From NCBI GenBank assembly GCA_976551045.1, contig CDPCPM010000061.1, positions 4,216,001 through 4,280,000 on the forward strand: a stretch of DNA of 64,000 nucleotides. Direction: 5' to 3'. A model generated the notes under the pieces. That model was not told the DNA's origin. It ran no database searches and saw only the letters and a list, made by a program, of their open reading frames with translations. Below are positions 15,851 to 63,656 of this stretch, one piece after another. Each line of letters opens with the position of its first letter. The stretch's first letter is position 1. Made by a program: the position numbers and the translations under genes. This DNA is from Glaucostegus cemiculus. Its lineage: Eukaryota.

Positions 15851-15869
15851 TTACTTTCATGGTTACGTT

Positions 15870-19010: not shown

Positions 19011-19294
19011 ACTAGAGGACATAGGTTTAAGGGGAGGGGTGAAAGATTTAATAGGGACCTGAGTGGCAACTCCTTCGTGCAGAGGGTGGGTATGGAATGT
19101 GCTACCGGAGGAAATGGTTGAGGCAGGTACAACAACAACACTTAAAAGACACTTGGACAGGTATGTGGATAGGAGGGGTTCAGAGAGATGTGGGACAAAC
19201 GTGGGCAAATGAGACTAGCTTGGTGGGCACCACAGTTGGCATGAATGAGTTGGGCTGAAGGGCCTGTTTCCATGCTGTATTACTCTACAACTCT
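19011..19294 (+). mobile_element. CR1 LINE 3' fragment
   Basis: actagaggacataggtttaagg...agagggtgggtatggaatgtgctaccggagg...gggcctgtttccatgctgtat. Confidence 0.8.
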
Positions 19295-19299
19295 AACTC

Positions 19300-25387: not shown

Positions 25388-25765
25388 TGGATCTCATTGA
25401 AACCTACCGGATACCGAAAGGCCTGGATAGAGTGGACGTGGAGAGGATGTTTCCATCAGTGGGAGAGTCCAGGATACAAGGGCACAGCCTCAGAATAAAG
25501 GGACGTCCCTTTAAAACTGAGATGAGGAGAAACTTCAGCCAGAGGGTGGTGAATCTGGGATTAGTTGTCACAGAGGGTGGTGGAGGCCAAGTCATAGCAT
25601 GTATTTAAGGCAGAGGTTGATGGGTTCTTGATTGGTAAGGAGGTTAAGGGTTACAGGGAGAAGGTAGGAAATGGAGTTTGGGGAAAAAAAAAAATCACCC
25701 ATGATTGAATGGCAGATCAGAGTCAATGGGCCAAATGGCTTAATTCTGCTCCTGTGTCTTGTGGT
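25388..25765 (+). mobile_element. CR1 LINE 3' fragment
   Basis: DLIETYRI.KGLDRVDVERMFP.VGESR..GHSLRIKGRPFKTEMRRNFSQRVVNL. Confidence 0.85.
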
Positions 25766-25868
25766 CATTGCATGTTGAGATATGCCAAGTTAACAGACAC
25801 CTCCAACAAAAGGAGGAATAACCCTCCACCTTGCAGGTAAAATATTAACATCTTCCTTTCCTTTGCAG

Positions 25869-25985
25869 AAATTTGAAGATTACTTTTTTGGTGAAGTAGA
25901 GCTGAACATGGTCCGTATCTCCCAGAGGTTCTCAGCTGACAGTTCTGGGTTCTATTCTTCTTCTGGCTCCATCAGCTTTTCTTAA
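25869..25985 (+). CDS. ASCC1: ASCC1 terminal coding exon: KFEDYFFGEVELNMVRISQRFSADSSGFYSSSGSISFS*
   Basis: Long pyrimidine tract plus tgcag acceptor (ends 25868). Matches ASCC1 C-terminus (FE.F.FG...L....ISQRF..DS.G.Y.S.G.I.FS). TAA at 25983-25985. Confidence 0.94.
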   Translation, partial: KFEDYFFGEVELNMVRISQRFSADSSGFYSSSGSISFS

Positions 25986-26662
25986 AAGTTGTGGAATTGT
26001 TGAGCCGTGGCTGTCTGACAGGATGTGTGCAAGATCAGTCACTGCACCCCGACAACCCAACAAAAAAGGCAATAGATAAGTCTCGCAGCTGAACTTGGAA
26101 ACCACAGTAGAACAGACTCACGTGGTGTTTATAGAAAATGAAGCAGAGTTTCAATTTAACCTTTTTCTGAAGCAAGGACTGAATTGTTAAGACTTTTTTT
26201 GGCCTTGGGATAAGAAACTGACATTGAAAAATGGAATACTTTTATTTGTCAGAATCAGGTACTTCCAAGTCTAGGGTAACAGAGCTCAGTAAAGCTCCCT
26301 GTTTTTGACCTCAACATTGTTCCTCAGAAGGATATGTCCTACTGTACCAACTTGGCACTTTTCCAGCCCTGTGCCAATCATCCTGTGCTCTCTTGGGCGG
26401 ATTGCCATCTTCGTCCTGACATGCGCCACCACAGACTGTTTATATGCATTTTGTAGATGACCCATGGGGTCAGCAGGCAGAGGAGACTCTTAATGCCATT
26501 GTCACTCCAGAACTGGAAACAAGAGGCCAGTGGTGCTGACCTTCTGCTCCAGCCTGCCCTCTGATTGCTGGGTTGTTCTCAGCCTGTCAGACAGTTGTGG
26601 GGAATATTTGGTTGCAACATGTTGTGGTGAGTTAATAGAGCAGATGTGCTTCTCATGTAACA

Positions 26663-26949: not shown

Positions 26950-29626
26950 CAGAATCAGAATCAGTTTTATTGTCACAACCATATACATACATGGTACGCA
27001 TAGGAGCGAGATACCGTCCTCCACAGGAACACGTCTCATAGAAAAGAATAACATAACAACCAACAGAGAGACACATACACACTTGGCAGAATACACAGTA
27101 CAAAACATTACTCATTAGTTCTTACATAAATAGATCTTAAAGTGAACGGGCTGGTGTCAGGCATTTAAAGTGCTGGTGCATTTCTGTGCACCTAGCATCT
27201 CCTAGTGTTAACAAAGGAAGATGGAGGGATGAGAGAGTTTGCAGTTCTTATGGCTTGCGGAAAGAAGCTATTGTTCAGCCTGGACGTTCTTGCCCTGATA
27301 CATTTAAGCCTCCTCCCTGATGGCAAAATTGTGAAGAGGTGGTGGGAGGGGTGAGAGGGGTCGGCCATTATGCTTTTTGTCTTCCTCACACAACGGTCTT
27401 TGTATATGTCTGCGAGGGATGGAAGCGAGACACCTATGATCCACTCCGCAGCCTTAACTATCTTCTGGAGGGACTTCCGCCCAGCAGCTGAGCAGCTTCC
27501 AAACCAAACAGAGATACATTGAGTTAGGATGCTCTCAATGGTCCCCCTGTAGAAGGATTTCATGACTGAGGGGTGTGGGTACGCCTTCCTCAGTCTCCGC
27601 AGGAAGTAGAGGCGTTTCTGAGCCTTCTTCGTGAGGGCCGTAATGTTAGTGGACCAGGTCAGGTCGTCGGTGATGTGCACCCCCAGGAACTTGGTGCTGC
27701 GTACTTGTTCCACAGCAGACCCGTTGATGGTCAGCGGGGCGTGCACACGATGACCCCTCCTAAAATCCACTATCATCTCCTTGGTTTTATCCACGTTCAA
27801 GGAGAGGTTGTTGTCATGGCACCACACAGCTAGTTGGTTCACCTCCTCTCTATAGTCCGACTCATCGTCATTCGTAACAAGACCCACCACTGTCGTGTCA
27901 TCGGCAAATTTAACAATGCGGTTGGAGCTGAATCTGGCCTCACAGTCGTGGGTCAACAAGGTGAACAGGAGCGGACTGAGCACACAACCCTGAGGGGAGC
28001 CAGTGCTCAGTGTGATGGTGCTTGAGGTGTTTTCACCAATTTTGACTGACTGTGGCCTGCCAGTTAGAAAATCCAGTATCCAGTTGCAGAGAGGAGTGTT
28101 GATGCCCAGAGCGCTCAACTTCCTGATAAGCTGTTGTGGGATGATGGTATTGAAAGCGGAGCTGAAGTCAATGAATAGCAGCCGGCAGTATGAGTCCTTC
28201 TTCTCTAAGTGATGTAGTGCAGAGTGCATGGCAGAGGAGACTGCATCATCGGTGGACCTGTTTGCCCGATAAGCATACTGATGAGGATCCAAGGATGGGG
28301 GGAGGGAGGCTCTAATGTGCTTCATAACTAGCCTCTCAAAGCATTTCATGACAATCGGTGTTAGGGCTATAGGACGGTAGTCATTCAGACACTTTGGAGG
28401 AGACTTCTTGGGAACAGGTATGATGGTGGCAGATTTTAGGCACTTAGGAACAACAGCCTGCTGTAGGGAGATGTTGAAGATGTCAGCCAGTACATCTTTA
28501 AGCTGGTCCGCACAGTCCCTGAGTATCCGCCCTGGTATGTTATCCGGTCCCGCAGCCTTCCGAGGGTTAACCTGTGAAAGGGCTTTCCCCACAGTGGCTG
28601 GGGTAAGTCTCAAAGCCTGTTCTTCTGGCGAAGGCCGGGCTTTCGAGGCAGGTGTGTGGTTCATGGCCTCAAACCTTGCATAAAATTCATTCAACTGGTC
28701 TGGTAGGGATGAGTCCCCATCACAAACCTGGGGTGGAGCTTTGTAGTCAGTGATGACCTGGATTCCCTTCCACAGGCGCCTCGCATCCTTGTCATTGGTG
28801 AAATTATTGTTTATCTTTTCTGCGTATAGTCGTTTTGCCTTTTTAATACCCCAAGACAGGTCTTTCCTTGCAGACTTCAGAGCTTCCTCATCCCTCGCCC
28901 TGAAAGCTGCATCTCTAGTACGCAGCAGACAGCGAACCTCCCCAGTCATCCAGGGCTTCTGATTTGCCCTCACTGTAGTCACTTTGTCCACAGTTACATC
29001 CTCAATGCACTTCCTGATGTAGCATAGCACAGAGTCTGTATACTCTTGGATGTCAATGTGGTTGTCCTGAGTGGCTGCCTCTTTGAAGGTGTTCCAGTCC
29101 GTAGTTTCCAGGCAATCCTGTAGGGCTAAGACTTTGCCCTCAGGCCAAACCCGAGTCAGTCTCTTGACTGGTTTGTTCAGTTTCACCCGAGGTCTATATG
29201 CAGGCTTAAGCAAAATTGTGATGTGATCCGATGAACCCAGGTGAGGGAGGGGGCATGCTCTATATGCCTCCTTCACACTGGTGTAAACCTTATCCAGTGT
29301 ACTATTCTCTCTGGTCGCGAAGTTTATGTGTTGGTGAAACTTAGGCAGGACTGACTTTAGATCTGCGTGGTTGAAATCCCCCAATACGATGAAGAATGCA
29401 TCAGGAGGAGCGGTCTGTTGTTTGCTGATGGCATCATATAATTCGTTCAGTGCCTCTCTAGCATTTGCACTGGGAGGGATGTACACCACCCCCATTATAA
29501 TACTTGTGAAGTCCCTTGGCAGATAGTATGGACGACACTTTAAGAACAGAGACTCCACTATAGCTGAGCAATGTTTATAGACAACCACAACATCCTGGCA
29601 CCATGCCTTGTTGATGTATACACAGT
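26950..29626 (-). mobile_element. Rex1/Babar-clade non-LTR retrotransposon, 5'-truncated, young
   Basis: Open ORF with APE and RT motifs. 3' end is AATAAA plus (GATTCT)n tail, seen as cagaatcagaatcag at 26950. Candidate 5-bp TSD ATCCT at 26945-26949 and 29627-29631. Splits a CR1 3' end. Confidence 0.92.
27192..29588 (-). CDS. Rex1/Babar ORF: partial apurinic-like endonuclease plus reverse transcriptase (798 aa, no true start codon)
   Basis: APE motifs VYIPP, LGDFN, LDKVY, SSDH. RT motifs [45 protein letters not shown]. Rex1-typical CRPYYLPR. Frame extends upstream to CVYINKAWC at the truncation point. Confidence 0.92.
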
Positions 29627-29939
29627 ATCCTAGTGCCTGAATTTGGCCCTAAACCTTTCCTATCCATGTACCTGGCCAAATATCCTCAAAATGTTGTAAT
29701 TGTACCCACCTTTACCACTTTCTCTAGCAGCTCACTCCAAATACACACAAGCTTGTGTGAAAAATGTTGCCCCTCAGGTCCCTTTTAAATCTTTCCCCCC
29801 CCCTCACTTTAAATCTCTGCCCTCTAAGTTTTAGAATCCTCTACCCTGGAGAAGACAGTGGCTATCCACCTTATCCATGCTCCTCATGATTTTATAAACC
29901 TCTATTAGTCACTCCTACACTCCAGGGGAAAAAGTCAGC

Positions 29940-33412: not shown

Positions 33413-35084
33413 CTGCCTTCATCCAGTAGCATGGAGAAAAATGGTACAGAGGCTGGAAATGTAACTGAACACAGAAAATGCTTGGAAGAAAGGACAGCAA
33501 CTGTGGAGAGAGCAACAAATTCCAGGGTTTAGGTCAATAACCTTTCACAAGAACTGGAAGGAGGAAGGGCAGGAGTGGATGCAGAACCAGGGAAAAATTT
33601 GGTAAAGGGTTGGCAGAGGAGATAGGTCAGAAGATGGAAGAAAAGGGGAGAAATCACATCAAGACATTAAGGAAAATTGACAGGAGAGAGAAAGAACAAC
33701 TAATTCTACTGGTTGGCAAGACTTGGACTGGAGTGCAGTCCAAAAATTAGAGCAATTTTTTGCAAAACACTTACATACTGGGTAAGCTGTTGATTTTAGA
33801 TCACAGTATGGCTCCCAGATCAGCCAACATCTCAGTGAATTGCTGAACAGGCTTGTAGGGACAAATGGCCCAGTGGAACTGCCACAGACAAGATGCTGGA
33901 GGAACTCACCAGGTCAGGCAGCATCTGTGGAGGGAAATGGACAGTCGACTTCTCAGGTTGAGACCCTGCATCTAGACTGAAAGGTAGAGGAGATGGCCAG
34001 TATTAAGAGATGGAGCAAGAGCCGACAAGCAATAGGTGACTCCTGGGACAAGGTTAAAATGGAAGTAAGTGACCGCAAATTAATGCAGTCTGACAGTTGT
34101 GGCCTTCCCAGACAAAAAATGGGGAGCGATGATTTGTCTCAAGAGCAGAAAGGCAAGCTGCAGTGCCACTTACAAATCAGTGCAGTGCCTATGCTGCTCC
34201 TGCCATTTCATGGCCAAACAGCAGTCTGCCCACTTCACCTTAACATCAAGGGAAGGAAAGGTTGCATTTTAATGTATTGAACCACAAGGCAGGAATTAAA
34301 ACTAGAGAAACTGACTGTGTGTCAGAAAGCTGGCTCCTACTCGCTGACTTCTGGATTTAATTCCAGTGTTCAGCTGTGTGTGAACCTCTGGAGGGGTGAT
34401 TTGCCAACTTCAATATGTTAATCTGTCAGTTGCAATGATATTAACTTTTTTTTTTAATATAATTTAATGGAGTGTCCACAATTCAATAGATTCTCTGGAA
34501 CTCACCAGTGGAAAGGAAGATGAGAACATATTGGAACAGAGGATCCAAAGGCATAATAAGCAAACGTGTGAATTGAGTACTGACATTTGCCAGCTGCTTT
34601 CCTACCAACTTCTGTGAAAGGTGTTGATCGTGATACTTGTGCCAAGTGGTTACTTTGACACCTATGTAGGTCTGTCAATATGGTCTCCTCTTTGGAGCAT
34701 TAATCAGATGTTGCCACTGCTTTTGCTGTTTTTATTTCAATTTCTCATGAGGACCAAGATGTCTAGTGGTATCAGCACAGCAGGCTATTCACAGACCAGC
34801 AGCTCCAAATGACAGCAGCTCCTGGGAGATCACTCCCAGCACCTGCAGGAAGTGGATAGGTTTCTCAAACCTCTCAGGACACCAGTGTCCCGGGAGCTCA
34901 GGGTGCCATGGCAGATCGTGGCAGCTTGCTGGAATGGGATCTGCTGCCAAGTGGATCTCATGGACACTGTTTACTTTCAACCAGCCATATCATCACTGTC
35001 GTTTTACACCAGCTCAGCCTCAGCTCAAGGCTCTGAAAGCAGCAAACCCAGAGCACTTTATAAAGTTACATTAAAACTGACCAA

Positions 35085-43150: not shown

Positions 43151-43866
43151 GGGACCTGTAGGTTTCTCTGGAGCAAAATAAGCCAAAATCCTGAAGGAAC
43201 TCAACAGGTCAGGCAGCATCTGTGGAGGGAAATGAACATTTTGGGTCAAGACCCTCCAGCATTTTTGGTTTTTTTTGCTCCAGATCCCAGCATCTGCAGT
43301 TTCTTGTGTCTCCTGTAATTTTCTCTGTATTGGTTTGTTAAGGTGGTATCAACATTCTTAATTCCCTCTGGCTCAGCATTTTGCAAAATAAACCCACAGC
43401 GGAAAGCTAATCTACTTGCATCCAATACTGCAGCACTGTCCTTAGTTAGAGGCTTGAAGTTCTCTGTCAAAGTGTGCAAACCTGAAGAATGATTTGTATT
43501 TATTACAATGCCTGTCAAAACCTCAGGACAGCCCAATGTGACTTACAGTCAACTAAACACTTCTGAGGTGCATTCGCTGTTGTTGATGTAGGAAATTCAG
43601 CAGTCAAAATATGGACAGCAACTCCCGCAAACAGCAAGACAATAATGACCAGGTCATCCTTTTATTTGAAGTGCTCTTTATGGAGGGATTAATATTGACC
43701 AGGACACCTGGGAGGACTCCCCTGCTGTTCTTTGGCAATGGGATCTTTTACAAATACCCAATGGGACAAATGGAGCCTCAGTTTAATCTCATCAGAAAGG
43801 GTGACACCTCCAGCAGCACATGACTTCCTTGGTGCAGGAAGTGAAAAGAGATCAAGAAAATAATTA

Positions 43867-44524
43867 CAGAGGCACAAGAGATTCTGCAGATGCAAAATGC
43901 TGGAGGAACTCAGCAGGTCAGGCAGCATCTATGGAGGGAATTAAACAGTTGATGTTTCGGGCCGAGACCCTTCATCAGGACTGGAAAGGAAGAGGGCAGA
44001 AACCGGAATGAGAAGGTTGGGGGAGGGGGAGGAGCACAGGCTGGCAGGTGACAGGTGAGTCCAGGTGAGAGGGGGAGGAGGGTGGGTGGGTAGGGGAGGG
44101 GGGGATGAAAGGGACTGACGTAAGAAGCTGAGAGGTGATAGGTAGAAGAGGCAATGGGCTGAAGGAGGAGGAATCCGGTAGGAGAGGGCAGTGGACCATG
44201 GGATAAAGGGAAGGAGGTGGGGAATAGACGGGCAGGTCATGAGGGCAGAGGAGGGGAAAGAAAAGGGGTGAGGGGGCCACAGTAATGAGGGAAAACAAAA
44301 GGGTGGGGAGAAAAAACTGGGGGGGAGGAGGGGAATGGTTTCTGGAAGTTAGAGAAATCGATGTTGATGCCATCAGGTCGGACACTCCCAAGATGGAATA
44401 TGAGGTGTGGCTCTGCCGACCTGCGTCCGGCCTCAGCGCGGCAGTATAGGAGGCCGTGGATAGACTTGTCAGTATGGGAGTGGGATGTGGAATTGAAGAT
44501 CTGGCCACCGGGAGATCCTGGCAA
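43867..44524 (-). mobile_element. Penelope-like element 3' fragment: GIY-YIG endonuclease C-terminus, pyrimidine-rich UTR and terminal repeat with hammerhead motif
   Basis: ORF 44237-44524 gives FNSTSHSHTD.SIHGLLYC..EA.RR..E.HLIFHLGS..PDGINIDFSNF, the typical end of a Penelope EN. It is followed by the terminal repeat gatgctgcctgacctgctgagttcctccagca found many times in the window. Confidence 0.85.
43945..43984 (-). ncRNA. Minimal type-I hammerhead ribozyme motif in a Penelope terminal repeat
   Basis: - strand reads CCAGUC-CUGAUGA-A-GGGUCUCGGCCC-GAAAC-AUC-AACUGU: both core boxes, stem II GGG/CCC, stem I CAGU/ACUG, NUH triplet AUC. Confidence 0.7.
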
Positions 44525-46463
44525 ATATAATTAAATTGCTGTGACCTTTTAACTGCTTGTCTTGCCCTGAACACATTAAACAGAGGAATTCAGCAGGTCA
44601 GGCCACATCTGTGGAAGGAAAGGAATTGTCAACATTTCAGGTTGAAACCCTGCATCAGGATCTGACCCGCTGAGTTCCTCCAACAGATTACTTGTTACTC
44701 CAGATTCCAACATCTGCAGTCTCTTGTGTCTCCAGTCCAGGTAAAGGGTCCCGATCTGAAATGTCGACTGTCCACTTCCCTCCACAGATGCTGCCTGACC
44801 CACTGAGTTCCTCCAGCAGCTCGTTTCTCACTCCAGATTCTCTGTGTCTCTGTGTCTTCACATGTGTTATCCTGTATTACACAGACATCTCCCGCACCCT
44901 GTCAAAGTGACCATGCTTTTTCTGACTGAGCAGGTCAGCGTGCTCTTTGACTGTGGAAAGCAACGCAGCTGAGCCCTAGTCTCCCTTAGCTCCAGGCCCA
45001 AAAATATATCATTTTACTGCAGCCCACAAATCAGATGCAGGAAGCAGGCTCATTTTTTGTTAGGAAATCTTCGAGCTTTTCCTATCTTTAAATCACAGAA
45101 CCCTGCAGAAGGCCAACTCCCTCCTACACAACTTGACAACCACCAGATTTTCGACTCTGAGCATTCCTCAGAGAAAGTCCCCAGTCAATAGTGTGTACGT
45201 GATCAGCTTTTCACTTTAAAGAATTCAAAGAAGAATGGTTACAGCAATTCCACAAGGAATAGGTTTGGATGAAAGCCCTGAGCCTTATTATTGCCGTAGA
45301 AGAGAGACTTACTGACAACCTTTATAACAATGAACAGTTAATGTGAATTAAAGACAAGGAAGTTGTTCAGCCTGAGAACAAAAATTGACAATGCAGCCAC
45401 GCAAATCACCACCCTTGGGCAGTGCTGAGATTCAAATACTTTTTCCCAAACAATGCAGCAAATTCCCAGGAATAGTAGTTACTGATGGAACACGACTGCA
45501 ATTTAAAAAAAATCTATTGAGGAACAGAGTTGACAGCAATGGAAATATTAAAAGCAAAAAACAACTGCTGCAGGAACCCAGTGGGTTGAGCAGCATCTGT
45601 TGGGGGAAGGAATTGTTGATGTTTCAGGTCGAGACCCTCCATCAGATCTTCAAGAGTTTTGCCTCTGAGATATTAATAGATCTATTTTGCTCACCAGGGG
45701 TTTAGCAAAGTGTGTTTAGTTAGATGGTGAAGGAAGAGATTTTTGAGATGGTCATATGACAACTTACATTTATACAGTGTCCTAAAACTTGTTAAGACAC
45801 CCCCAGGTGTATCAAGGGAATGATTTTCAAACAAAATTTACCACCAAGCCACAAGTGATATTAGATCAGGTGGCTTGATCGAAAAGGTAAGCTGTAAGGA
45901 GCATCTTACAAGAGGAGAGAGAGGTAAAGAGAGAGAAGTGTAGGGAAGGAATCCCAGGGGTTAGAGGTTGGGTGGTTTATGCAAGGACTAAAGGGGAAAT
46001 GATTGAAACTGGGATTGTACAAGTTGCCTGAATTGGATGAGGACGAAGATATTGTGGTTGGGAAGGAAGGAGGTTCCGGAGATGGTCTCTGACGAAGGAC
46101 TGCAGGGATTTGGAAATAGGTGAGAAATTTAAAATCAAGTCATTAGCTGATCAGGAGCCAGTGCCGGTCAGCAGGGACAAGGAGGAGAAGGGTGAGTTAG
46201 GTCACTGGCATCAGATTTCAGGATGAACTCCAGTTCTGCAGGTTTCAAGGTGAGAAACCAACCAGGTATTGGAATAGTCAATGGATGGTCTGTGGGAGGA
46301 AAAGGCTTGATGGGCCAAATGGTTTTGCACCAATTTATGCTTTCATGTCCATCTGTAGTTACCTCAGTCCATCAATGGAACAACTGCAATGTTCTACAAA
46401 TAATTTCCATCCAATATCAACAGGGCATTTATACAATGTTCAAATTAATTACTTAAATCCTTG

Positions 46464-50429: not shown

Positions 50430-50900
50430 TTGGCGATGTGCTGGGTTTGTGGCGCAGACTCACACCGGCTCAGATTAAGGAGGAGGGAAGAGGGGGGGGG
50501 TTGTGATTGGAAATATAATCAGCTCTCATTTCACAGCAGCCAACCTGCGGAATAAGTCGCATCAGCGCGGCCTCGGAGAATGTTGCAGCCGCTGAACCCG
50601 CTGCTGATGGCGCTGCTCCTGGCGGCGGCGGCGGCCGGGGAGGGTGCGGACACGGCTGGGAAGAACGGGAATGCTCTGGAGGATGAGCAATGGCTGGCCA
50701 GGGTCTCCCCGTTCAGCCAGCACATCAGGAATTGGAACCGATTCAGAGACGTGAGTTTCCGCTGCAGAATTGTTCCAATTGTAAAATATCGCAGAGCGGA
50801 AAAAAACATTGAGGGGGGGGGGTTTATTATCATCAGATAATAAATGAGGGGGGCGAGGGGTGATGGTGATGTGGGGGCTCAGCGGGGATGCAGCGGTGTG
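50430..50900 (+). promoter_or_regulatory. CpG-rich promoter/first-exon region of SPOCK2 with reverse CCAAT (ATTGG 50506-50510) and TATA-like TATAA (50514-50518)
   Basis: Local high GC and retained CpGs against a CpG-depleted background. Motifs are 60-75 nt upstream of the ATG. TSS unknown. Confidence 0.55.
50580..50750 (+). CDS. SPOCK2: Testican (SPOCK2) first coding exon: signal peptide plus EDEQWL...WNRFRD; 57 codons, phase 0
   Basis: ATG at 50580, hydrophobic leader LLMALLLAAAAA, testican N-terminal motif EDEQWL..S.....I..WNRFRD, gtgagt donor at 50751. Paralogue assigned from the known ASCC1-SPOCK2 adjacency. Confidence 0.9.
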
Positions 50901-51000
50901 TAATTCACCTGTCCTTACCGTGAAGAGCTCGCCCACTGCACCACGTCTTAGCCAGGGAGTCTGACCGGCTGGGGGGTGGGTAGATGGAGGGGGGGGTCAT

Positions 51001-51408
51001 TGCTACTGTCCATTGCTGCTGGTCATTGCTGCTGTCCACTGCTGCTGTCCATTGCTGCTGTCCACTGCTGCTGTCCACTGCTGCTGTCCACTGCTGCTGT
51101 CCATTGCTGCTGTCCACTGCTGCTGTCCACTGCTGCTGTCCACTGCTGCTGGTCATTGCTGCTGTCCACTGCTGCTGTCCACTGCTGCTGTCCACTGCTG
51201 CTGTCCATTGCTGCTGTCCACTGCTGCTGTCCGCTGCTGCTGTCCGCTGCTACTGTCCATTGCTGCTGTCCATTGCTGCTGTCCATTGCTGCTGTCCATT
51301 GCTGCTGTCCATTGCTGCTGTCCATTGCTGCTGTCCACTGCTGCTGTCCACTGCTACTGTCCACTGCTGCTGTCCACTGCTGCTGTCCATTGCTACTGTC
51401 CACTGCTG
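51001..51408. repeat. 13-bp minisatellite, 31 units, consensus TGCTGCTGTCCA(C/T), in SPOCK2 intron 1
   Basis: 31 x 13 bp from 51001 to 51403. Explains the 13-aa periodic ORFs on both strands. Confidence 0.96.
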
Positions 51409-51976
51409 GGCGACGCTAATCGATTTGGTGATCAATTTTGCCAGGTGGCCGGTTGAGAGAAAATATATTTATTTCACTTGCTGCAGCAGTTAAATGTTTG
51501 TATGTAGAGGGGGTGAAGATCTGGTTCCCGGAGAGGGAGAGGGAGAGGGGAGGGGGGGGTTGTTGGGAACGATACACGGGGGGAGGGACTTCGGAAGGGA
51601 TGGGCAGTAACGGGACCCTGGCAGTCAGGTGCTCCACACGGTCTCCCCACAGCCTGCGTCAGCCCATCGCCCCCTACACAAAACAGGCCGTTTAAATCTG
51701 TCCATGGACCCGATCCGTGTGTCTCCCCCCCCCCCCGCCTCCCCATGCAAACGTACTTGGTCTGCAGGGCTGTAGCTTTTCTTGCAGAGAGGCTGACCGA
51801 CTGAAGCAGGAGCCCAGTGAGGTGATGAGCTTGGGCTGGACCTGGTGTTTGGTGGCGAGGTTGGTGTGTCCCTCGGGTGTTTGCAACCCTACAGCCTCTT
51901 GTGGGTCTTCAATGGTAAAAGAAGCTCAATCCTGATTTCAAATTCACTCACTGAGCTCAGGTCTTGGCGGTGTCAT

Positions 51977-52449
51977 CTCCGAGGTATCTCCACCCCTCCA
52001 GCCCTCGCCTCTTCCCTCCATCCGAGGTATCTCCACCCCTCCAGCCCTCGCCTCTTCCCTCCACCCCTCCTGTCCTGGCCTCTTCCCTCCACCCGAGGTA
52101 TCTCCACCCCTCCAGCCCTGGCCTCTTCCCTCCAGCCCTGGCCTCTTCCCTCCACCCCTCCTGCCCTGGCCTCTTCCCTCCACCTGAGGTATCTCCACCC
52201 CTCCAGCCCTGGCCTCTTCCCTCCACCCCTCCAGCCCTCGCCTCTTCCCTCCACCCGAGGTATCTCCACCCCTCCAGCCCTCGCCTCTTCCCTCCACCCG
52301 AGGTATCTCCACCCCTCCAGCCCTCGCCTCTTCCCTCCACCCGAGGTATCTCCACCCCTCCAGCCCTCACCTCTTCCCTCCATCCGAGGTATCTCCACCC
52401 CTCCAGCCCTGGCCTCTTCCCTCCACCCGAGGTATCTCCACCCCTCCAG
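51977..52449. repeat. C-rich minisatellite, 43-bp unit (GAGGTATCTCCACCCCTCCAGCCCTCGCCTCTTCCCTCCACCC) mixed with shorter ~30-bp variants
   Basis: gaggtatc recurs at 51981 and 52024 (period 43). Some units lack the cgaggtatct block. Confidence 0.93.
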
Positions 52450-55400
52450 TCCATTAAACTGTCATCATTGACAGTTGGGTTAATGGACCCTTAATTCACC
52501 AACACGTTCCCCCCCCCACCCCCCCCCCACCCACCAAACCCTTCCTAAAATCTCTCTGCTTCTTCTCTGAGATGCTGCATAAAACCTGCGCCTTTGGCCA
52601 AGATCTTGGTCATCAGTCAGTTGTGCAGGTGGGTGTCAGTCTCTTGTTTGATGAAGCTCCCGTGAAGTGCCACATAGAGGATTGTTCCGATGTAAAACTG
52701 AGCCACCCGTGGGTAATCCAGTCCTGGCCCAAGCCCGAAGACTTGTGATGATTTTGATGCCCTCCCAGAACCGACCCCAAAACACTCAGTGGGGTTCGGT
52801 CACTGAGCTCAGCAGGTGGGGCCGCACCCCGAGAGACAAGAGCATCTTCCTGCCTCTCCTGGTCGACTGTGGACAGTCAGACCCATCACACCCTACAGTA
52901 CCAGTGTAGTTATTCATAAAGACCCATTCTGATCTGAACCCATTTCATTTCCTTACAGTTATAGAAGGAGGCCATTTGACCCATCAGGTCTATGCCGGCT
53001 CTCAGTGCAATTCCATCAGTTCCATACCAATACTTATTTTCCCTGTAACCTGTTCTCTCTCTCATGCCCATCCACTTCCTATCCAATTCTCCCACTGTTC
53101 ACCCACTCTAGGGTAAGTTATAGCCAACAATGAACCTACCAATCCCTCGTCTTTGGGATGTGAGAGGAAACCTGAGGACCTGGAGACTTCATGCAGATAG
53201 CACTGGAGATCAGGACTAAAGCCAAGCCAGTGGCTTTTGGGTCTGACCCAAACCAAACCTGATTACAGAACCTTGGGACATTTGTTCTTTTTTAAGGGCA
53301 TTAGTAAACAAAACTGCTGAAAGTACACAGCAGGTCAGTCAACACCCGTAGAGTAAAACGTGTGGACTTTACATGGTGCATACTTGGGATGTCGGATCCT
53401 GCCCCATTATCTTTAGAAACGGTGACTGCTCTGCAGTGTACGGCCAGCTATTTTCTTTTACACAGATGGCATTTGATAGCCACCTGCCTCTGAAGGGGTA
53501 AGCATGGTAAAAAAAAATTCTTGCATTTATAGAGTGGTTTTCATGAGCTCAGCACATGCCAAAGAGCTTTGCAGTCATCGTTGTAATGTGCACAAAGTAA
53601 ATTCCCTCAAATATCAAAAAGATATGGACCTCTGAGTGATAAATATCACTTGTAACAATGAGAACCCTTCTCTTTTATACTGAAACCACAAATTTTAAGG
53701 GAAATTAGGGATTAGAAATTATAGATAATGGATGTGGAGCAAACTGAGGGAATGGTTGCTAATCTTAGGTCAGTTTGCCAACTTCAACATTGATTCACAT
53801 GGTGATTCGGAATGGAATTGAAATCCCTTTGGTAGGAAAGGGTCCATACAGGTTTTGCATGGATTGTTGAAGGGACCTATTTAAGTAGCTTCTTCTTGGT
53901 GTGAATTTTGCTTCCTGACTCTGACTTTCAATTGCCAAGATGGTCCCTGGAAAGATCCCCTGGCACCAGGGGTTGTGATGTCGGGAATACAGTGTTGCTG
54001 TTATCAGTTCTGCTAGCCTTCGTACTTGGCGATGTGATGGTCACGACTGGGTTTCAGCCACTGCTTTTCCATGAGGATGCACAGGAAAAATCTTCACAAA
54101 TCATGATTCCCTATCAGTCCAGATTGCTTATTCTGCCCTGATGCAGGGTCTCGACCCAGAACATCCCCCTCCCCACAGACGCTGTGCGACCCACTGGGTT
54201 CCTCCAGCAGATGGTTTTATGCTCCAGGTTCCAGCATCTGCGGTCTCTTGTGTCTCCAGTCCTGATCAGTGATGCTTAGTGCAAGTAGGTTGGGACAGTG
54301 CAAGCTTGCACTACTCATCCCTTTCCTCAGCACATGCAGGTTGCCTCGCTGCTCAAGCAAAGCAAAGTTACAGGGGCAGTAAGACTGCTGGTTCATCGGT
54401 TGAAGAAATAAGAAATCACCCGCCCAGTTGCCCACTGAGTGCAGAGATACTTCCTACTGTAATGTTAAAATTGCATCATTGCAACAAGACTTAAGCTAAG
54501 AAAAAATGATAGATTTTTAATTAAATACTCTGGATGGAATATTTTGCTAAAAGCCTCCTACACCAACACCCTTTGACCTGCATTCCAAGCCCTGTTTATG
54601 TATCAGTTAATTAAAATGGTTTAAGGTGTCTCATCGCTGGCTCATGCTAGTGGAACAGATACAGAAACCTTTATTGTAAGAATAACATGGTGCTGTTCAT
54701 GACCCCAGGAGCTCAGCACACTTTACAACTACTTGAGTGCTTTGGAAACATCGCCTGACGGGACAAGGTGCCTGTGAGGGGTGTGATGGACCTTGGACAA
54801 CGAGGATGAGTGGTCTTTCCTTACCCTCTCAGCTTCCCTCCTCAGGTCTGCTTCCTGCACAAGTGCCAAGCTTCTGCCTCCTAGCGCCCTCTCAGCAGAC
54901 AGGGAACTGTGACCCACATATCCTGTATGTAATTAGTTGCGTTTGAGAAACAATACTGGGTGAGAGTGGCTAGGCTGCAAGCACTTTACTTACAAATCTT
55001 TGTGACAAGAGTTATTCCCAGGGCTCCGTGATTATGACACAACCCTGGAAATTACTGAAGCTGATGTTAATAGAAGAACACTTAACTCATTTGTGTGACA
55101 TTCTCCCACCTGCTAGCTTAATGGGAATTACATTCTAAAATATTACAAAGTTCCACCACTGTGGTTCATTGGGTTACATTATTCCTTCTGGAGCAGGGGA
55201 TTGTGGATTCGGGCTCTTTTCCAGAGACTTGAGCGCGTGATCTGGCTTAACACGAGCTGCTGGAGGAACTGAGTGTGTCAGGCAGCATCTGTGGAGGGAA
55301 ATGGACAGTCGACGCTTCTGGTCCAGACGCAGGATCTCAATCTGAAATGTCAGCTGTCCATTTTCCTCCATAGATACTGCCTGACCTGCTGAGCTCCTCC

Positions 55401-58400
55401 AGCACCTCTGGTGTTGCGCCGGGTTCCAGCATCTGCAGTCTCCTGTGTCTACATGGACCTGGGTTGAGGAGCTGGTTACAGTACGGCTGCTGTGCTGCAC
55501 TGTCGAGATGTTCCCTTGCAGACAAAGTGTCAGCAGAAATCCTAGCTGTCCTCTCAGGTGGATGGATAGGTTTATATTTAAAACCAGTGTGGGGTAGTTC
55601 TCTCTGGTGCCCCGACCAATGGTTAACCTACAGCCAACATCGATAAGATAGGTTTCCTGGCCATTTTCAGGTCACTGTTTATGAAACTGGGTGCTCCGTT
55701 TTCCTCCTATATTTCAGAATACATGCAGGTTGGTTGTAAGTTGCCCCTAGTGTGTAGGTGAGGGGTAGAATCTGAGGGGAGTTGATGTGAATTTGGGAAA
55801 ATAAACTAGATGAGTGTAGGGTTAGTGTAACTGGGTGTTTGATGATCCGTATGGATTTGGTGGGCTGAAGGGCCTGTTTCCGTGCTCTGTGACAATGATT
55901 CTATGAATTTTGCAGTATTTAAATGAGTTGCAGTGTTCCCTTGATACTCTGGCTGTAAAATGCTCTTTGTGGGGCATTTTCTCCGACGCACTGCATTGTG
56001 GGGGCTGCAGTCCCCATGGGCAGCTCCTTAAAGCAATCCCTCGGCCTTCACTCCACTTCAACTAAGTCACCGCACTTTAACCCATCACCCCCTGAACTGC
56101 TTCTACACCACCTTTCTCCCGTGAATCCCATCCCTTTCCCTGATATCCCCACTTCCTAAACCTTTTCCTGATCCATGATCCTTGGGCACCAGAGAAAGTG
56201 CCTGGCAGATGAAGCGTGTGGCAGTGCTGCACTCTGAGAGGTCTGTCCGTGTTCTCAGACGGGAGGGGGAGTGGTGACGGAGGGATTCACCCGTGACTGC
56301 CAACACGGCCGATGCGGTGACGTCACATCTAACTCTTACCGCCCCACAGCAGTGAGTGGCTCAAAATAAAAATTGACAACATTTGTTGTTTCTTTTGCTC
56401 GAGCCTTGTCCCTCCCTCAATCCTAATGTTGGCCTCAGCTGCTAGATAACGGTCGTGGGTCACTTTGTCATCACTGATAAAATGGCTTAATCTGAGAGAA
56501 AAATACCTCATAGGATGGTATCTCCATGTAACATGGGTTTCAATGTGTGTTACAGAAAATTGAGATACGGATGTTCTTCTAGGAAGACAACCCCTCCATA
56601 ATACGGGGTCACCTGTATGTTGTCATTTCTTCATTAGCGCTCCCAATGTAATAGCACCTTGAGGCATCTTCTTCATATGGATTGCAAAGTTCAAGAAGAT
56701 GCCTTACCACCACTTCCTCAAGGGGTGTGAGGGGTGGGCAGTAAATGCCAAGCTTGCCAGCAGTGCCCATATCCCACGTATGAATAGAATAAACGGCTAC
56801 TTTACAATATATGTAAACGTCACTTCCAATGTCTTTGTGTCCATTTCAAGAACAGAGCAACTTGCATTGATACCTCAGCTTCTTTGTCTCCAGTGGTGAG
56901 CTGCATTCATTTGCAGTGATTGTAGTTCGATAGGTAGATAATCTCTCTATGCAGGATAAACCATTACAATTAGGTGAATGGCCACTTTTTTGCGTCTAGT
57001 TGGGAAAGGAATGCTGGCTGGTACACACTGCATACCCTCTGCTTTAGTTTACATGGTGCCACAGGATATTTAACATCAAACAGGAATTTACTTTAATATC
57101 TCATCTTGGAGGATATCTCCAAGGGATGCAGAGAATTCATTTCTTGCTGAGAACTGGCAGGAAGCAGGAGGGGCATACAGAACATTTTAAATGAATCGAA
57201 ATGTATTGCCTGAAATGTCGATGGAAACAAATTCGACAGAGTTTGCCAGAGGATATTGGGATAAATATTTAAACTTGTTGAGCTGTGTGGAAGGAGTGAG
57301 GTTGTGAGATTAACTGGGCAATTCTTGCAAGGGGTCGGCTGGCCCCAAGGAGCCTCCTTCTGCAAATTGGCTGCCAATCCTCAGGAACAAAAATAAATAT
57401 TTGCCTTTAAATAGCACCTTTTCAGGTTTGGGTCATGGTACCTAAATAGAAAGATACTCCAGCCTGTCCTCCTTTGATGCCCTTTCTGATTGTAGGTCAT
57501 TGGAATGGACTCACAAATACCCTGGTAGAGACCCACCCGACCACCGTCTTAATCTAAAGAGGGTGTGGCCACTTTGTTGCTTTCACTGTCCTTCTGTCGA
57601 TGAGCTACAAGCCCGGCAGAGTTGTGGATCTCAACCAGACACTGCACCGGTTCTGCATATCTAGGTAATCTCAGAGCCAATGCAGTTGCACATGAAAATC
57701 TCGCAGGGAATTCTACCTGGGAATTTATCCTCTTCTAATTTCCCTTCCCTGTTGGGTGTGAGTACACTATCCTTTGTCAGCTCCCTTGACTGTGCTTAAG
57801 CTTATGAGCTGGGCAGGTGGGAGTAATCACTAGTCTTTGATACGATCCTGTGTCCTATTATCTGAGTCCTCCATTACTTGTGGAGCTGTTCCTCCAAGGT
57901 CACACATGGTCGGTGATGCTGCACTAATGCAGCAATCCCTCGTACACCAATGTGAAGAAAACCTTTGGATTTCTTAAAATAACCCACTAAAGGCGCAGCA
58001 GTGATTTGTTTCCTGCTGGTACCAGGTCTGATGTTTTGGAAATGTGCTGCAGGCAAGCAGCTGTGACTGTTGTTTCCACCCCCATTGTCTTACCCATTTC
58101 CATAGCAACGGGCTGTACAGCCTCGCTGTAGACTTCATCTCTGCTGAAGCTGCAGTGTTTGAGTCCATGAACTTGAATGAATGAAAGGACCAGCACGCGA
58201 GGATGTTTTGGAGTTTGCATTGATTTGTATCCTGCAAATAAACACATATTTGTCTTGTTTTGATGGGGCAAAATGTGGCAGCCAATTTTCACGTGGCAAT
58301 ATTCCACCAACTGCAGGGAATACATGGATTTTTATAACAATTTTCACATGATTTCAGCACAATTGTAGCTGGTATACAACCGCTATCCCGCATTAAATCA

Positions 58401-58864: not shown

Positions 58865-59100
58865 AGAGACCAGAGACTGCAGATACTGGAATCCAGAGCA
58901 AAAAAACAAACTGCTGGAGGAACTCAGTGGGTCGAGCAGCATCTGTGGAGGCAGAAGGTGTACATTGATGTTTCTGGTTGAGACCCTGCATCAGGTCAAC
59001 ATACACCCTTTGCCTCCACAGAAGCTGCCTCACCCACTGAGTTCCTCCAGCGTTCTGTTTTTTTTGTTCCAGGTCCCATTGTCTGCAGTCTCTTGTGTCT
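58865..59100. mobile_element. Palindromic non-autonomous element made of two inverted Penelope terminal repeats (others ~43170-43313, 44583-44733, 55255-55450, 61370-61547, 62470-62647)
   Basis: Left arm gagactgcagatactgga...ctgctggaggaactcagtggg..gcagcatctgtggaggca. Right arm tgcctccacagaagctgcc..cccactgagttcctccagc...tctgcagtctc. Confidence 0.8.
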
Positions 59101-61054
59101 TCAGTAAATGGTCACAAGTAGGCATAAAGCATGCCCCGGCAGTCTTGCAAAGTAAGGGTGAGGTATGAAAAATAAATATCTGTAGATGCTGGAAATCTGA
59201 TTAAAATCAGAAAATGCTGGGAACACCCAGCAGATGAGTGGTGGAATTTGGTGAGGGGGGAGTTGGTGGGAGTGTGGGGAGAAAAGAAACAGGTTAGCGT
59301 AGGATTAGAGTCATTGTGTGCTTGATGGTCATTGCGGACGGTGGGCCCGACTGTTCCATTGCTGTATCTCCTTGTAACTCGGAGGTCAGGTGGCATTTGT
59401 GGAAAGAGAGACAGTTCACACTTCAGGTACAGACTCTTCGTCAGATGGACCTGAAACATTATCTGTTCCTCTTTCGTCAAATGCTGCCTGACCTGCTGAG
59501 TGTCTCCAGCATTTTCTATTTTTATTATAGGTGAGGTATCTCAGGTTTCCTGGCCAATATTTATTCCTTCAATCAACAGTCAATCTGCACATTCTCACTT
59601 CAGCATTTGTGGGAACCTGCTTTTGCACAAATTAGCTTGCATAGTTCTACATTACAGCACCACCTCATTGGCTGTACAGGCCCTTCCTGGGCTATGATGC
59701 CAACTTAAGGACACCCCTACAAACCAACGGGCTCCCATAATGTTATAAAATTCAAAAGTCCGACATATGTACGTACATTCGTTACTATGAACGGCAGAAC
59801 TAGTTCTCTTCCCTCCCTCTCCCTCTCTTCCCCTCCCCCACACACTTATTGTTCTTTCTTATGTGCTTTTGATACCATTCATTACAACACTGTGAAGGTG
59901 TGGTTACCATATCGAGCGATTATTGTGTATTATCTGACTTATGGAGAAGATTGACTTCTGGACATCTGTTAAAATGGAGCCCACTTGTTACCCAGGGAAG
60001 ACCTGTAGGGAATTTGAAGAGTGCTGGAGAAAGGCCTCCGTGTTTAAGTGTTGCCGATCACTAAAACACGAGTAGCACTTAAAAAGCAAAATGGACTCAG
60101 AAACTTACCAATGCAGTAACAACATTGGACATTTTCAGGCACCCCTCCCACCAATAGAATTTTCCTTTCGTCAGAGGAACTTGAGGCAATCCTGTCTTGG
60201 TGGAACCATGAACTCATCAGAGTCCGTGTGTTGCTGCTGCAGAGGCAGTCGGTCTGTGTAGCAGATACCTCCCATTGATTCAGGCTGCTGTGACCTCAGT
60301 TCAGCGTGCAGCAGTAGCATTTCACACAATAGCTAATTGCTTTTCCTCAACCACATTAGTGTCTGCACCTAATTGTCTGTATTATTGCTGCAGGAGATTT
60401 AATTAAATTGTCTTTCACCTGCATAAATTTGCAATTTTCAATATCATTGAGCCAAATTGTTTTGAACAATGTACTATCCCACAGGCCAGGGGTATCTAAT
60501 CATTTGCTTTCAAGTGTCACATGGTGTATACCAAGGAGCCTGAGGGCCATATTTGGTTATTAAACCCATGCACCCATAATTCCCATGTATCTCAAATAAC
60601 TCCCACTAACAGACCTTGATGGTTCTCACGAAGCTTGGTAGGAAGAAAGCTTTGCATTTATAAAGTGCCTTCTGCAACCTCAGGACGTTGTAGAGTGCTT
60701 CTTGGACAACTCTGATGTGTAATCAATATTGTAATGTCGGAAATGTAGTCAATAATTTATGCACAGTAAGCTCCCACAGTAAGCAGTCAGGTAATCTGAG
60801 TGGTGTTGGCTGAGCTATCAATACTGTTCGGAATAATGCTGAGAAGAATCCCCGTACTCTTATAGAATTATTATGACATTGATGGAGACCATTTGGCCCA
60901 TTGAATCCGTACTAGTGTTTTGTAAAGCAATGCTGACAGTTCCATTTCCCTGTTCATTCCTGTTGGGATCTTTCACATTCATCAGTGAAGGCGGACAAAG
61001 CTTCGGTTAAGAGTCTCATTTGAAAGGCATCACCTCCAACAGTTCGACACTCCT

Positions 61055-61330: not shown

Positions 61331-63656
61331 GTGTTTAAACTGTTCTGCTGAGCTTCCTCTATTACAGTGGAGACACAAAAGACGGCAGATGCTGGAATCC
61401 TGAGCAACAAACAATCTGCTGGAGGAACTCAGCGGATCGAGCAGCATCTGTAGGAGGAAAGGAATTGTCAACATTTCACCTGGAAACCCTGCACCAGTCC
61501 TTATGCTGCTCGACCCGCTGAGTTCTTCCAGCAGGTTGTTTGTTGCTTCCTCCATTACAACACTGGCTGCACTTGGAAACAGCTCATCGGCTGCAGTACT
61601 GTTTGGAAAGTTGCTGCATTAAGTGTAAGTCTCTTTCCCAATAGTGGAGTGGAGTTTCCCCCTCAACCACTGGCAGAAATCGCTGGAGTGAGATTTGATT
61701 TCCAGCCTTCCAAATCAGAAGTGACGGATCCTGCCGTGAGCCCTTGCTGAGATCCAGATGCTGAGGGTCTGGGTAACCCACCAGTAAAGCCACAGTGGTT
61801 AAAAACCCACCAGACTGAGAACATTGAAACTGGCAGTGGATAGGAAAAAGGTGCAGCAAGCCAAACGGGAGATAGGGAGGGACTTCCAGAGACTGGATGT
61901 CTGGAAAAATGCCCACCAACAACAACGAGATCCTGGAAGACTTCATTTTTTTTTAGGAACGCATTAGAGACGTCCTTCTCCCTGAGCTGTGGGGGGGGGT
62001 CCTCAAGAAACCTGGGGTTTCAGGCAACAAAAAATGCCACCATCTCGGTGTTAATGGTTCTACTCCATGTTTAGCTTTTACCTTTGAAGGAAATGCTTTG
62101 CAACATGCATCTACGCCATGGAGAGGCATTTTTGCCAGATCAAAGGAAACTAAGTACCCAGTTCTTAATGTTTTCCTGGGATCCACATTTGCTGTACCCT
62201 AGGTGGAATTCCTTTGCCAGCACTCTAGAAATGTGTGGCATTTGGGCTCATCAAAATGTTCAAATTGCCTTCAATTTTCCGCCTGCCTTCCTTTCATCAA
62301 GAGGCTCCAAATCCTTGTGAGCGACAACTCCTCACCCCATGGGAGAAACTTAGCCAAATCCAGAATGCACGGAAAAGCTGGAATCTTCCTTCGGTTCAGA
62401 ATGTCACTGAACTTCAGTGCAGTTGACCAAACTAATTGGGAAAAGTACATCCTTTTAAAAACTTGCAATTGCTGGAAATCTGAAATGAAGCCAGAAGTTG
62501 CTGGAAACACTCAGCAGGTCAGGCAGCATCTGTGGAAAGAGAAGCAAAGTTAACACTTCGGGTCAAAGATGAAGGGTTTTTTGACCTTAACCAATACCTG
62601 TTTCTCTTTCCACAAATGCTGCCTGACCTGTTGATTGTTTCCAGCAATTGGAAATGACTACTTTAAGGAAGAATCAATTCTTTAAGATAAAGCAAGGCAC
62701 TAGGTGCTCATTCCCTTGAGAAATTAAATGAAATTACATGATTCTACCTCTTTGACAGTTTTAATTGGAAAGACCGGTGTTAAATACCATGGTGTCACAT
62801 TGCTCAATATCTCAAAGCACTCCACATCTAACTATTCGCTTTGAACTGCTGTGGATAATGTTATGGGCAGCCACAGTAGCCATTTTGGCCATAGCTGGGA
62901 CCTAGAAAAAATAAGCAGAGGAATGGTAAGTTAGTCTGCTTTTTGTGGATTTGATTGCACAAGGAAAGTTGACCCTCAAGAAGAAAGGAAAATTAAATCC
63001 CTGTTGGAGGTCAAATATGTTCAATGGCAATGAACAGACTGTTAAGAAACAAATGACATAACTATCACTCTTCCGTGGTTGGAGTGTGCTGTTTAACAAT
63101 TAATTTAATGGTCAGTTTATTTGAAATTTAAGAAGCATTTCCATTTTAATAATTTAAGATCTGCTTGACCTTGGATTTGCTCATGAGGAATGTTCTGCCT
63201 GATTGTACAGTTCCCAGCTCAAGGTGAAAGTAGTTTCAAGCAGAATGAGACGTGGCTTCTTCATCAAAGATTAATTTCAAAAGTCTATTTCTTGTGGCTC
63301 ACTGATGATGTAGAGAGGAGAGGCATCACACTGTGTAGTACCGAGCACATCAGACAAGAACACTCCAGCTACAATTGTTGAAGGAGATTCAATTTTAAAA
63401 TTGGACTAGGCTAGTCAAGTGTAAAATCAGGAAGGGTTCTTTTTCTCATTAAAGGATTCTATTGACCCAGAAAACCCATAGCTGCTCGGGGAGGCAAAAT
63501 ATAATTGTCCAGATTGCCATTGGGTGAGAGCATTGGAAGTAGGGATCAAAGGCAGGTCAATAGCATCAAGGTGAGTCATGATCTGTTTAAAATTAAATGG
63601 TGGTACATACGGTATATGAGGGGTTGAAAGGCCTATTCCTGATTGCTTGGATTAAT

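What the first reader, a model, noticed from the sequence alone, without database searches (positions are those of the whole stretch)
43945..43984. Minimal, probably dimer-dependent hammerhead ribozyme at the end of a Penelope element
Seen: the - strand reads CCAGUC CUGAUGA A GGGUCUCGGCCC GAAAC AUC AACUG, downstream of a Penelope GIY-YIG C-terminus. Sister copies keep the un-decayed GTCGACTG (33941-33949, 44763-44770, 55306-55313), so the ancestral form is CAGUC-CUGAUGA-A-stemII-GAAAC-GUC/GACUG, with a perfect 5-bp stem I. Established: Penelope-like elements encode minimal type-I hammerheads, and an extra A after A9 is tolerated in some viroid hammerheads. Inference: stem III is only the palindrome ACGU with no loop, so it could fold only as a dimer of two copies, favouring cleavage in tandem transcripts. 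No ORF track would reveal this.
Basis: partly seen in the sequence, partly recalled or inferred. Interest (0 to 1): 0.72.

Follow-up and report, generated by a model that had tools for sequence, protein, structure and literature searches.

The report
Decayed Penelope-element minimal hammerhead copy
This is a real but worn copy of the tiny self-cutting RNA motif already known from the ends of Penelope-type jumping genes; this copy is likely unable to cut, and the family's short copies start just before the motif rather than at its cut site, suggesting they were likely copied from uncut RNA.

Summary
The motif is there (43946-43983, minus strand). It sits in the terminal repeat (pLTR) of a solitary, 5'-truncated 660-bp copy of a very abundant Neptune-type Penelope-like element (RT, Cys linker, GIY-YIG). 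The family form (GUC/GACUG) is confirmed: 357 exact intact copies genome-wide, control 0. It fits the published minimal-hammerhead consensus of Cervera and de la Pena 2014 letter for letter, including the extra A and loopless palindromic stem III, so the catch is right but known. The copy at these coordinates has two CpG-decay changes (G16.2>A, G1.1>A) that break the ACGU palindrome and the pair beside the cut site. It has no intact tandem partner and is probably inactive. The core boxes are not more conserved than flanks across copies (0.85 vs 0.82), as expected for dead copies. Extra: truncated copies pile up 3-5 nt before the core (55 of 100 listed), with no spike at the cut site, and a sister lineage spread with an A9>C core. 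This scan noted the same family and similar 5'-end patterns on other DNA.

The parts
43863..44522 (-). Solitary 5'-truncated copy (about 660 bp) of a Neptune-type Penelope-like element: endonuclease C-terminus, pLTR, hammerhead, tail
   Evidence: blastn to four longer copies, 76-79% identity over 43890/43893-44519/44522, and nhmmer end at 43863
44342..44522 (-). Remnant of the GIY-YIG endonuclease C-terminus (frameshift near 44500; stop codon mutated)
   Evidence: translation; own-genome protein search; longer copies match RVT_1 and GIY-YIG
43984..44341 (-). Pyrimidine-rich 3' UTR / pLTR body ending in a polypyrimidine tract and CAG
   Evidence: alignment of 15 endonuclease-selected copies
43979..43983 (-). 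Stem I 5' strand (CAGUC); family-wide hot spot of 5' ends at -3 to -5; overlaps an Initiator-like word (Inr consensus recalled)
43971..43978 (-). Core box C3-A9 (CUGAUGA) plus the extra A before G10.1; intact
43959..43970 (-). Stem II, 4 bp (GGGU/GCCC) with CUCG loop; intact
43951..43958 (-). G12-A13-A14-A15.1, loopless stem III and N17; G16.2 is changed to A at 43953, so the palindrome ACGU is lost (ACAU) and the triplet is AUC
   Evidence: sequence against 357 intact copies
43946..43950 (-). Stem I 3' strand; predicted cut between 43951 and 43950; G1.1 is changed to A at 43950, giving a C-A mismatch beside the cut site
43863..43945 (-). Downstream pLTR part with the optional tail of about 35-45 nt (this copy has an internal deletion of about 25 nt); in full-length copies this runs on into the ORF start

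Best explanation
The motif is a decayed, likely inactive copy of the minimal type I hammerhead that a high-copy Penelope-like retrotransposon (likely Neptune clade) carries in its terminal repeat. SHOWN: the family form has stem I of 5 bp, stem II of 4 bp, an extra A and a loopless ACGU stem III; it occurs once per pLTR, at the 3' end of truncated copies and at the 5' end of partial tandems just ahead of the ORF. INFERRED from geometry and from published assays on relatives: a monomer cannot close stem III; two copies (in a tandem transcript or in trans) would swap strands to make a double hammerhead with 5+4+5 intermolecular pairs and cut after GUC, slowly and probably with help from the element's protein. 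INFERRED from 5'-end mapping: most new insertions were reverse-transcribed from uncut RNA, starting internally at one of two sites about 90 and 135 nt past the core and ending at random or at a hot spot 3-5 nt before the core. This copy inserted alone, then lost two CpG guanines (G16.2, G1.1) by neutral decay.
For: 357 exact intact 31-nt copies, control 0; 2,358 copies with stems fixed and core left free, control 0. 20 of 20 copies chosen by endonuclease homology have the hammerhead end downstream on the same strand, 19 within about 0.1-0.4 kb. RT and GIY-YIG in long copies (RVT_1 E 1.2e-8 and 2.4e-5; GIY-YIG E 0.011; 3 of 5 pieces matched), Cys linker, DKG motif. 5' pLTR with hammerhead running into the ORF in L146/L162; two same-strand hammerheads in L171 and L028. 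Two 3' ends near +88 and +134. Match to the published consensus; there the monomer was inactive and dimers and trimers weakly active. Double-hammerhead secondary structure: -19.9 kcal/mol for an intact copy, -4.2 for this copy. One compensatory change between subfamilies, C2.1-G1.1 to U-A with C17>U: 9 of 23 vs 3 of 52, Fisher p 0.0008 (one event, copies are not independent).
Against: No cleavage was measured. Core positions are not better conserved than flanks in 78 of 192 copies that passed the filters (core 0.852, stems 0.832, downstream 0.817, best downstream block 0.862; both filters bias this). The dimer MFE is a different, non-catalytic duplex (-33.7 vs -19.9). Shared core changes U4>A (19 of 78) and A9>C (18 of 77) exist. 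No spike of 5' ends at the cut site. This copy's enzyme half is intact, so it could in principle cut an intact partner in trans. Neptune placement rests on the linker motif, not on a tree.
Confidence: 0.85

Rival explanations
1. The hammerhead is catalytically vestigial in this whole family and persists as part of the pLTR (promoter, RNA 5' end, fold-back or protein-binding signal), not as a ribozyme.
For: A sister lineage with CUGAUGC-A (A9>C) and often a 3-bp stem I is linked to its own diverged endonuclease (5 of 25 loci had endonuclease hits; 2 of 28 within 700 nt). U4>A is common. No 5'-end spike at the cut site. In the anole Poseidon element, hammerhead mutants did not affect insertion in vitro and no RNA-seq reads began or ended at the cut site (PMC11167929).
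Against: The canonical-core lineage keeps every feature of the cross-phylum consensus; variation between subfamilies also falls on tolerated places (N7, N17, loop 2, a compensated 1.1-2.1 pair); the anole ribozyme does cut when protein is present. A9>C could be an extra C before A9 instead of a lost A9.
Confidence: 0.3
2. This particular copy is an active or host-co-opted ribozyme that cuts a transcript at this locus.
For: All 11 single-stranded core nucleotides, stem II and 4 of 5 stem I pairs are intact; AUC is an NUH triplet.
Against: Palindrome lost, C-A mismatch at 1.1-2.1 (a rejection criterion in PMC3088659), no intact partner nearby, both changes are ordinary CpG decay, and the site is intergenic and antisense to both neighbouring genes.
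Confidence: 0.04
3. The motif belongs to a tandem non-LTR retrozyme or a separate SINE-like element.
For: Most family copies are 90-140 nt and non-coding; retrozymes are reported in one chondrichthyan genome (bioRxiv 10.64898/2026.07.22.740005).
Against: This copy is joined directly to endonuclease sequence and is single; short copies have variable ends and often an inverted partner (17 of 30), which are PLE truncation products (PMC8557442).
Confidence: 0.03

Closest known systems
Minimal hammerheads (min-HHR) in pLTRs of metazoan Penelope-like elements (Cervera and de la Pena 2014, PMC4209133; read parts 1-3 of 4 and supplement file 2, part 2)
   Same: Type I, CUGANGAH core with an extra nucleotide before G10.1, G10.1-C11.1, GAAA, palindromic 15.2-16.2 with no loop, NUH, short stem I, located in pLTRs, mostly solitary copies, dimer model.
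   Different: Stem II is only 4 bp with a tetraloop (7-8 bp in Schistosoma). No shark, Callorhinchus or Leucoraja entry in supplement file 2 (file 1 could not be searched). This copy is decayed.
Poseidon element PAc of Anolis and its hammerhead (Frangieh et al. 2024, PMC11167929; read parts 1-2 of 4)
   Same: Hammerhead at the pLTR-ORF junction, two internal RT start sites giving an optional 30-40 bp tail, uncut RNA as the dominant template, no reads at the cut site.
   Different: Different clade (this family has a Cys linker); in PAc the ORF starts at stem II, here the in-core AUG opens only a short frame of about 21 codons and the long ORF starts further on.
Neptune-clade EN+ PLEs (Craig et al. 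2021, PMC8557442; read passages)
   Same: RT with C-terminal GIY-YIG, CX2-5CxxC linker, DKG motif, 5' truncation, partial tandems, inverted 5' copies, tail, hammerhead in pLTR.
   Different: No tree built, so Nematis is not formally excluded; no intact ORF among the copies fetched.
Dimer-cleaving PLE hammerhead variants (Lunse, Weinberg, Breaker, RNA Biol 14:1499; paper not held, seen only as cited in review PMC6765202 passages)
   Same: Very short palindromic stem III, dimer-dependent cleavage.
   Different: Could not compare sequences.

Membership tests
min-HHR of metazoan PLEs | Core CUGANGA + extra H + G10.1-C11.1 + GAAA | tested here: met
   Window copy and family against the consensus
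min-HHR of metazoan PLEs | Palindromic 15.2-16.2, no loop 3 (family form) | tested here: met
   ACGU in 357 exact copies
min-HHR of metazoan PLEs | Palindromic 15.2-16.2 and paired 1.1-2.1 in the window copy itself | tested here: not met
   ACAU and a C-A mismatch
min-HHR of metazoan PLEs | Located in the pLTR of a PLE, at both ends of tandem units | tested here: met
   20 of 20 endonuclease-selected copies; 5' pLTRs in L146, L162; two hammerheads in L171
min-HHR of metazoan PLEs | Compensatory changes across consensus families | tested here: inconclusive
   One compensated pair at 1.1-2.1 and a U-A/U-G change at 10.4-11.4, but also uncompensated core changes U4>A and A9>C
min-HHR of metazoan PLEs | Self-cleavage as dimer, not as monomer | not testable with these tools
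   Only secondary-structure energies
Neptune-clade EN+ PLE | RT with DKG motif plus C-terminal GIY-YIG endonuclease | tested here: met
   (GIY-YIG below the Pfam cut-off, E 0.011; copies are frameshifted)
Neptune-clade EN+ PLE | CX2-5CxxC linker between RT and endonuclease | tested here: met
   L041, L121; feature as described
Neptune-clade EN+ PLE | Partial tandems, inverted 5' copies, 30-40 bp tail | tested here: met
Neptune-clade EN+ PLE | Phylogenetic placement with Neptune rather than Nematis | not tested
   No reference set at hand
Non-LTR retrozyme | Non-coding tandem array with a complete hammerhead in at least two consecutive units | tested here: not met
   Single endonuclease-linked copy; definition

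The most novel reading that the evidence does not exclude
In this Neptune family the element's RNA begins at an Initiator-like site inside the ribozyme's own stem I, so the hammerhead is the first 37 nt of the mRNA. Internally primed reverse transcription on uncut RNA runs off there, giving strong-stop-like cDNAs of 90-140 nt that make up a large share of the genome's copies. Cutting would be a rare, dimer- and protein-gated switch that removes the cap and a short upstream frame, and a sister lineage amplified with an A9>C core, which would make either a new natural core variant or evidence that cleavage is dispensable.
Probability: 0.25. Interest if true: 0.5.

Novelty: new member of a known kind. 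Interest (0 to 1): 0.18.

Why it matters
The motif class, its dimer logic and its place in Penelope pLTRs were described in 2014, and this copy is debris, so it matters little by itself. The family is of modest use: with roughly 200 recognisable ends per Mb (206 hits in 1.064 Mb) its 5' ends record which RNA was copied. That bears on the open question of what PLE hammerheads do, and here points to uncut RNA as template.

Tried and rejected
Rfam scan: no hammerhead model matched. Intron idea (GT at the ORF stop, CAG inside stem I, as in D. virilis): a guessed spliced-junction pattern with 1 mismatch found 0 genomic copies; 5' starts at -2 are not enriched and share no upstream exon; the RNA test was inconclusive because the tool skipped 7478-7585, next to the candidate donor at about 7467, and showed only the best 15 joints. 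Sequencing runs: no RNA holder listed for the locus. Three raw RNA runs under a coded label whose indexed runs hold under a tenth of the words, laid at 80-82% likeness on two other copies (L058, L172), showed family reads in both directions, no begin/end pile-up and one of 6 molecules near the tail end, not the cut site; ordinary libraries miss 5'-OH and cyclic-phosphate ends, so this is not evidence. The first 5'-end peak was partly an artefact of older subfamilies with different upstream sequence, so it was re-tested on young copies. Exact stem-I fold-back explains only about 3 of 30 hot-spot junctions, though 17 of 30 have some inverted partner. An untemplated cap G at the junction is only hinted (8 of 17 starts at -4; flanks were selected to be purine-rich), so it is not claimed. 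U4>A copies: 0 of 11 had endonuclease within 700 nt upstream. Two Pfam queries (L122, L136) gave nothing and were probably out of frame. The Lunse paper was not held. Literature searches: (Penelope-like elements + hammerhead + shark) listed one review, not read; none of the listings described this family, and bioRxiv supplements were closed and could bear on the chondrichthyan retrozymes.

Full report
Observation. The minus strand of 43945-43984 reads as stated. Numbering from C3 at 43978: stem I 5' strand 43983-43979, CUGAUGA 43978-43972, extra A 43971, stem II 43970-43959 (4 bp, CUCG loop), GAAA 43958-43955, then C-A-U-C and AACUG. A core-plus-stems descriptor hits once in the window, at this copy, against 0.03 per shuffle (3 of 100 shuffles had one). 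Rfam has no hammerhead match in the window.

The family. The genome is 2.85 Gb. The intact 31-nt form ending GAAACGTCGAC occurs 357 times, control 0. With stems fixed and both core boxes left free there are 2,358 matches, control 0, and the 100 listed are mostly CUGANGAA / GAAAC and their CpG-decay forms. A 23-nt downstream anchor with AAA at the second box has 14,735 exact matches. In 1.064 Mb of unselected DNA (19 blocks, one including the window) a downstream-only profile found 206 hits and only 2 strictly intact motifs. The window holds 32 family fragments. The host is probably a shark or ray; that label is recalled and echoed by earlier AI notes, not tested.

The element. The window copy spans 43863-44522 and is 76-79% identical to four longer copies. 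Upstream of the motif lies a GIY-YIG C-terminus. All 20 copies fetched by endonuclease homology have the hammerhead end downstream on the same strand, 19 within about 0.1-0.4 kb. Longer copies give Pfam RVT_1 (E 1.2e-8, 2.4e-5) and a weak GIY-YIG (E 0.011); 3 of 5 pieces matched. They carry DKG and a CX2-5CxxC linker, which PMC8557442 (passages) gives for Neptune and Nematis; no tree was built. Walking upstream found two copies of 30 in which a pLTR with hammerhead and tail runs straight into the ORF start (L146, L162). L171 has two same-strand hammerhead ends about 1.8 kb apart and L028 two 223 nt apart. The unit is about 3.4 kb. 3' ends cluster near +88 and +134, the optional tail that PMC11167929 (parts 1-2) ties to two internal RT start sites.

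Comparison with print. PMC4209133 (parts 1-3 and supplement file 2 part 2) defines exactly this motif: CUGANGAH, G10.1-C11.1, GAAA, palindromic 15.2-16.2, NUH, in pLTRs of Xena, Poseidon and Neptune elements of fishes. A Schistosoma monomer was inactive there, and dimers and trimers weakly active. Its supplement file 2 has no shark, Callorhinchus or Leucoraja entry; file 1 was not searchable. A 2026 preprint (parts 1-2 and passages) reports retrozymes in one chondrichthyan. In anole PAc the ribozyme cuts only with protein and is not needed for insertion in vitro.

Is this copy alive? Probably not. G16.2>A removes the palindrome and G1.1>A leaves a C-A mismatch beside the cut site; both are CpG decay, the commonest change in the family (CpG places 0.41-0.65 identity). 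A mispair at 1.1-2.1 is a rejection criterion in PMC3088659 (passages and section 8). The double-hammerhead secondary structure scores -19.9 kcal/mol for intact L011 and -4.2 for this copy; in both, the dimer MFE is a different, non-catalytic duplex (-33.7, -31.9), and these energies ignore core tertiary contacts. The nearest same-strand motifs, 680 nt upstream and 2.1 kb downstream, are decayed A9>C copies. The site lies between the last exon of an ASCC1-like gene (about 25.9 kb; AKAP7_NLS hit on an earlier exon) and the first exon of a SPOCK2-like gene (about 50.6 kb), antisense to both (gene names recalled). Its enzyme half is intact, so trans cleavage of an intact partner is not excluded.

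Among 78 of 192 copies that covered the motif and passed a 50% identity filter, non-CpG core identity was 0.852, stems 0.832, downstream 0.817 (0.736 just after stem I, 0.862 further on). Copies were found by the downstream part and filtered on the motif, so both sides are biased. There is no preferential conservation, which is what dead-on-arrival copies should show and does not refute function in the master. Between subfamilies, changes fall on tolerated places (N7, N17, loop 2, U-A/U-G at 10.4-11.4) and on one compensated pair, C2.1-G1.1 to U-A (9 of 23 vs 3 of 52, p 0.0008, one event). But U4>A (19 of 78) and A9>C (18 of 77) are also shared. The A9>C form has 29 exact copies of a 34-nt pattern, its own upstream sequence, often a 3-bp stem I, and endonuclease hits in 5 of 25 loci. 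It may be a lost A9 or an extra C before A9. A search for such variants in print listed one paper, with no occurrence of the term A9C.

Where copies begin. Of 2,906 copies with a 20-nt core-and-stem II anchor, 139 have three purines at -13 to -11, marking truncation between -10 and 0. My hand tally of the 100 listed, by letters matching the family upstream: 0:15, 1:8, 2:10, 3:17, 4:17, 5:21, 6:8, 7-10:4. So 55 start at -3 to -5 and 4 in the next four places beyond -6. In 24 intact young copies (L007-L030; L001-L006 dropped as segmental duplicates) 7 start at -6 to 0, against 0.02-0.07 per nt further upstream. For the cut site, 753 copies lack the AAA box. In the 100 listed, by hand, about a third are small internal deletions or duplications and about 4-7 begin exactly at G1.1, like the neighbouring places (about 5 each at +25, +26, +27, about 8 at +30). 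Of 30 hot-spot loci, 17 have an inverted partner, about 3 are exact stem-I fold-backs, and 13 have no partner. The simplest reading is an RNA 5' end near -4, where CCAGTCC fits the Initiator consensus (recalled); cDNA hairpin formation is the rival. D. virilis Penelope starts 46 nt before a 75-nt intron instead (PMC2377424 passages). I saw the peak first; earlier notes e1-9877312 and e1-9940539 prompted the targeted tests and the RNA-start wording.

Mechanism and verdict. Shown: motif, family form, pLTR location, tandem and inverted layouts, decay of this copy, 5'-end hot spot. Inferred: dimer-only slow cleavage in the master, uncut RNA as the main template, inactivity of this copy. Untested: any cleavage, the transcription start, clade by tree. 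It is a new member of a known kind, already noted many times in this scan; interest 0.18.

Noticed in passing
window 7895-25990 (+): Exons of an ASCC1-like gene (AKAP7_NLS hit E 1.1e-7 on 11011-11310; further exons near 7895, 12588, 25917); name recalled.
   Followed up: partly
window 50580-50760 (+): First coding exon of a SPOCK2/testican-like gene (signal peptide, EQWL and NRFRD motifs); name recalled.
   Followed up: partly
window 44583-44840, 55240-55453, 58866-59105, 59376-59517, 61367-61602, 62382-62649: Head-to-head pairs of family ends forming long hairpins; in most pairs one arm starts within -3 to +2 of the core.
   Followed up: partly
L219-L243: Sister lineage with CUGAUGC-A core, UUCG or CUCG loop, often 3-bp stem I and its own diverged endonuclease.
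   Followed up: partly
L001-L006 (contigs C3, C4): Six intact copies share flanks on both sides, so they were multiplied inside a larger duplicated unit; similar runs of identical variants on C1.
   Followed up: no
window 27192-29648 (-): An 818-aa open RT frame of another non-LTR retrotransposon, with a 94% identical fragment at 19610-19837; looks young.
   Followed up: no
window 13252-13727, 50907-51500, 51945-52511: Tandem repeats of 28 nt, 13 nt and mixed 15/28/43 nt, two of them just inside the SPOCK2-like gene.
   Followed up: no
L172:7051-7135: In three RNA runs of a coded label, reads over the rare ORF-start region are strongly one-directional and share differences, suggesting one expressed near-full-length copy.
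   Followed up: no
window 43984-44341 (-): The pLTR body looks like an intron (GT at the ORF stop in the family, long pyrimidine tract, CAG inside stem I), but no spliced form was found.
   Followed up: partly
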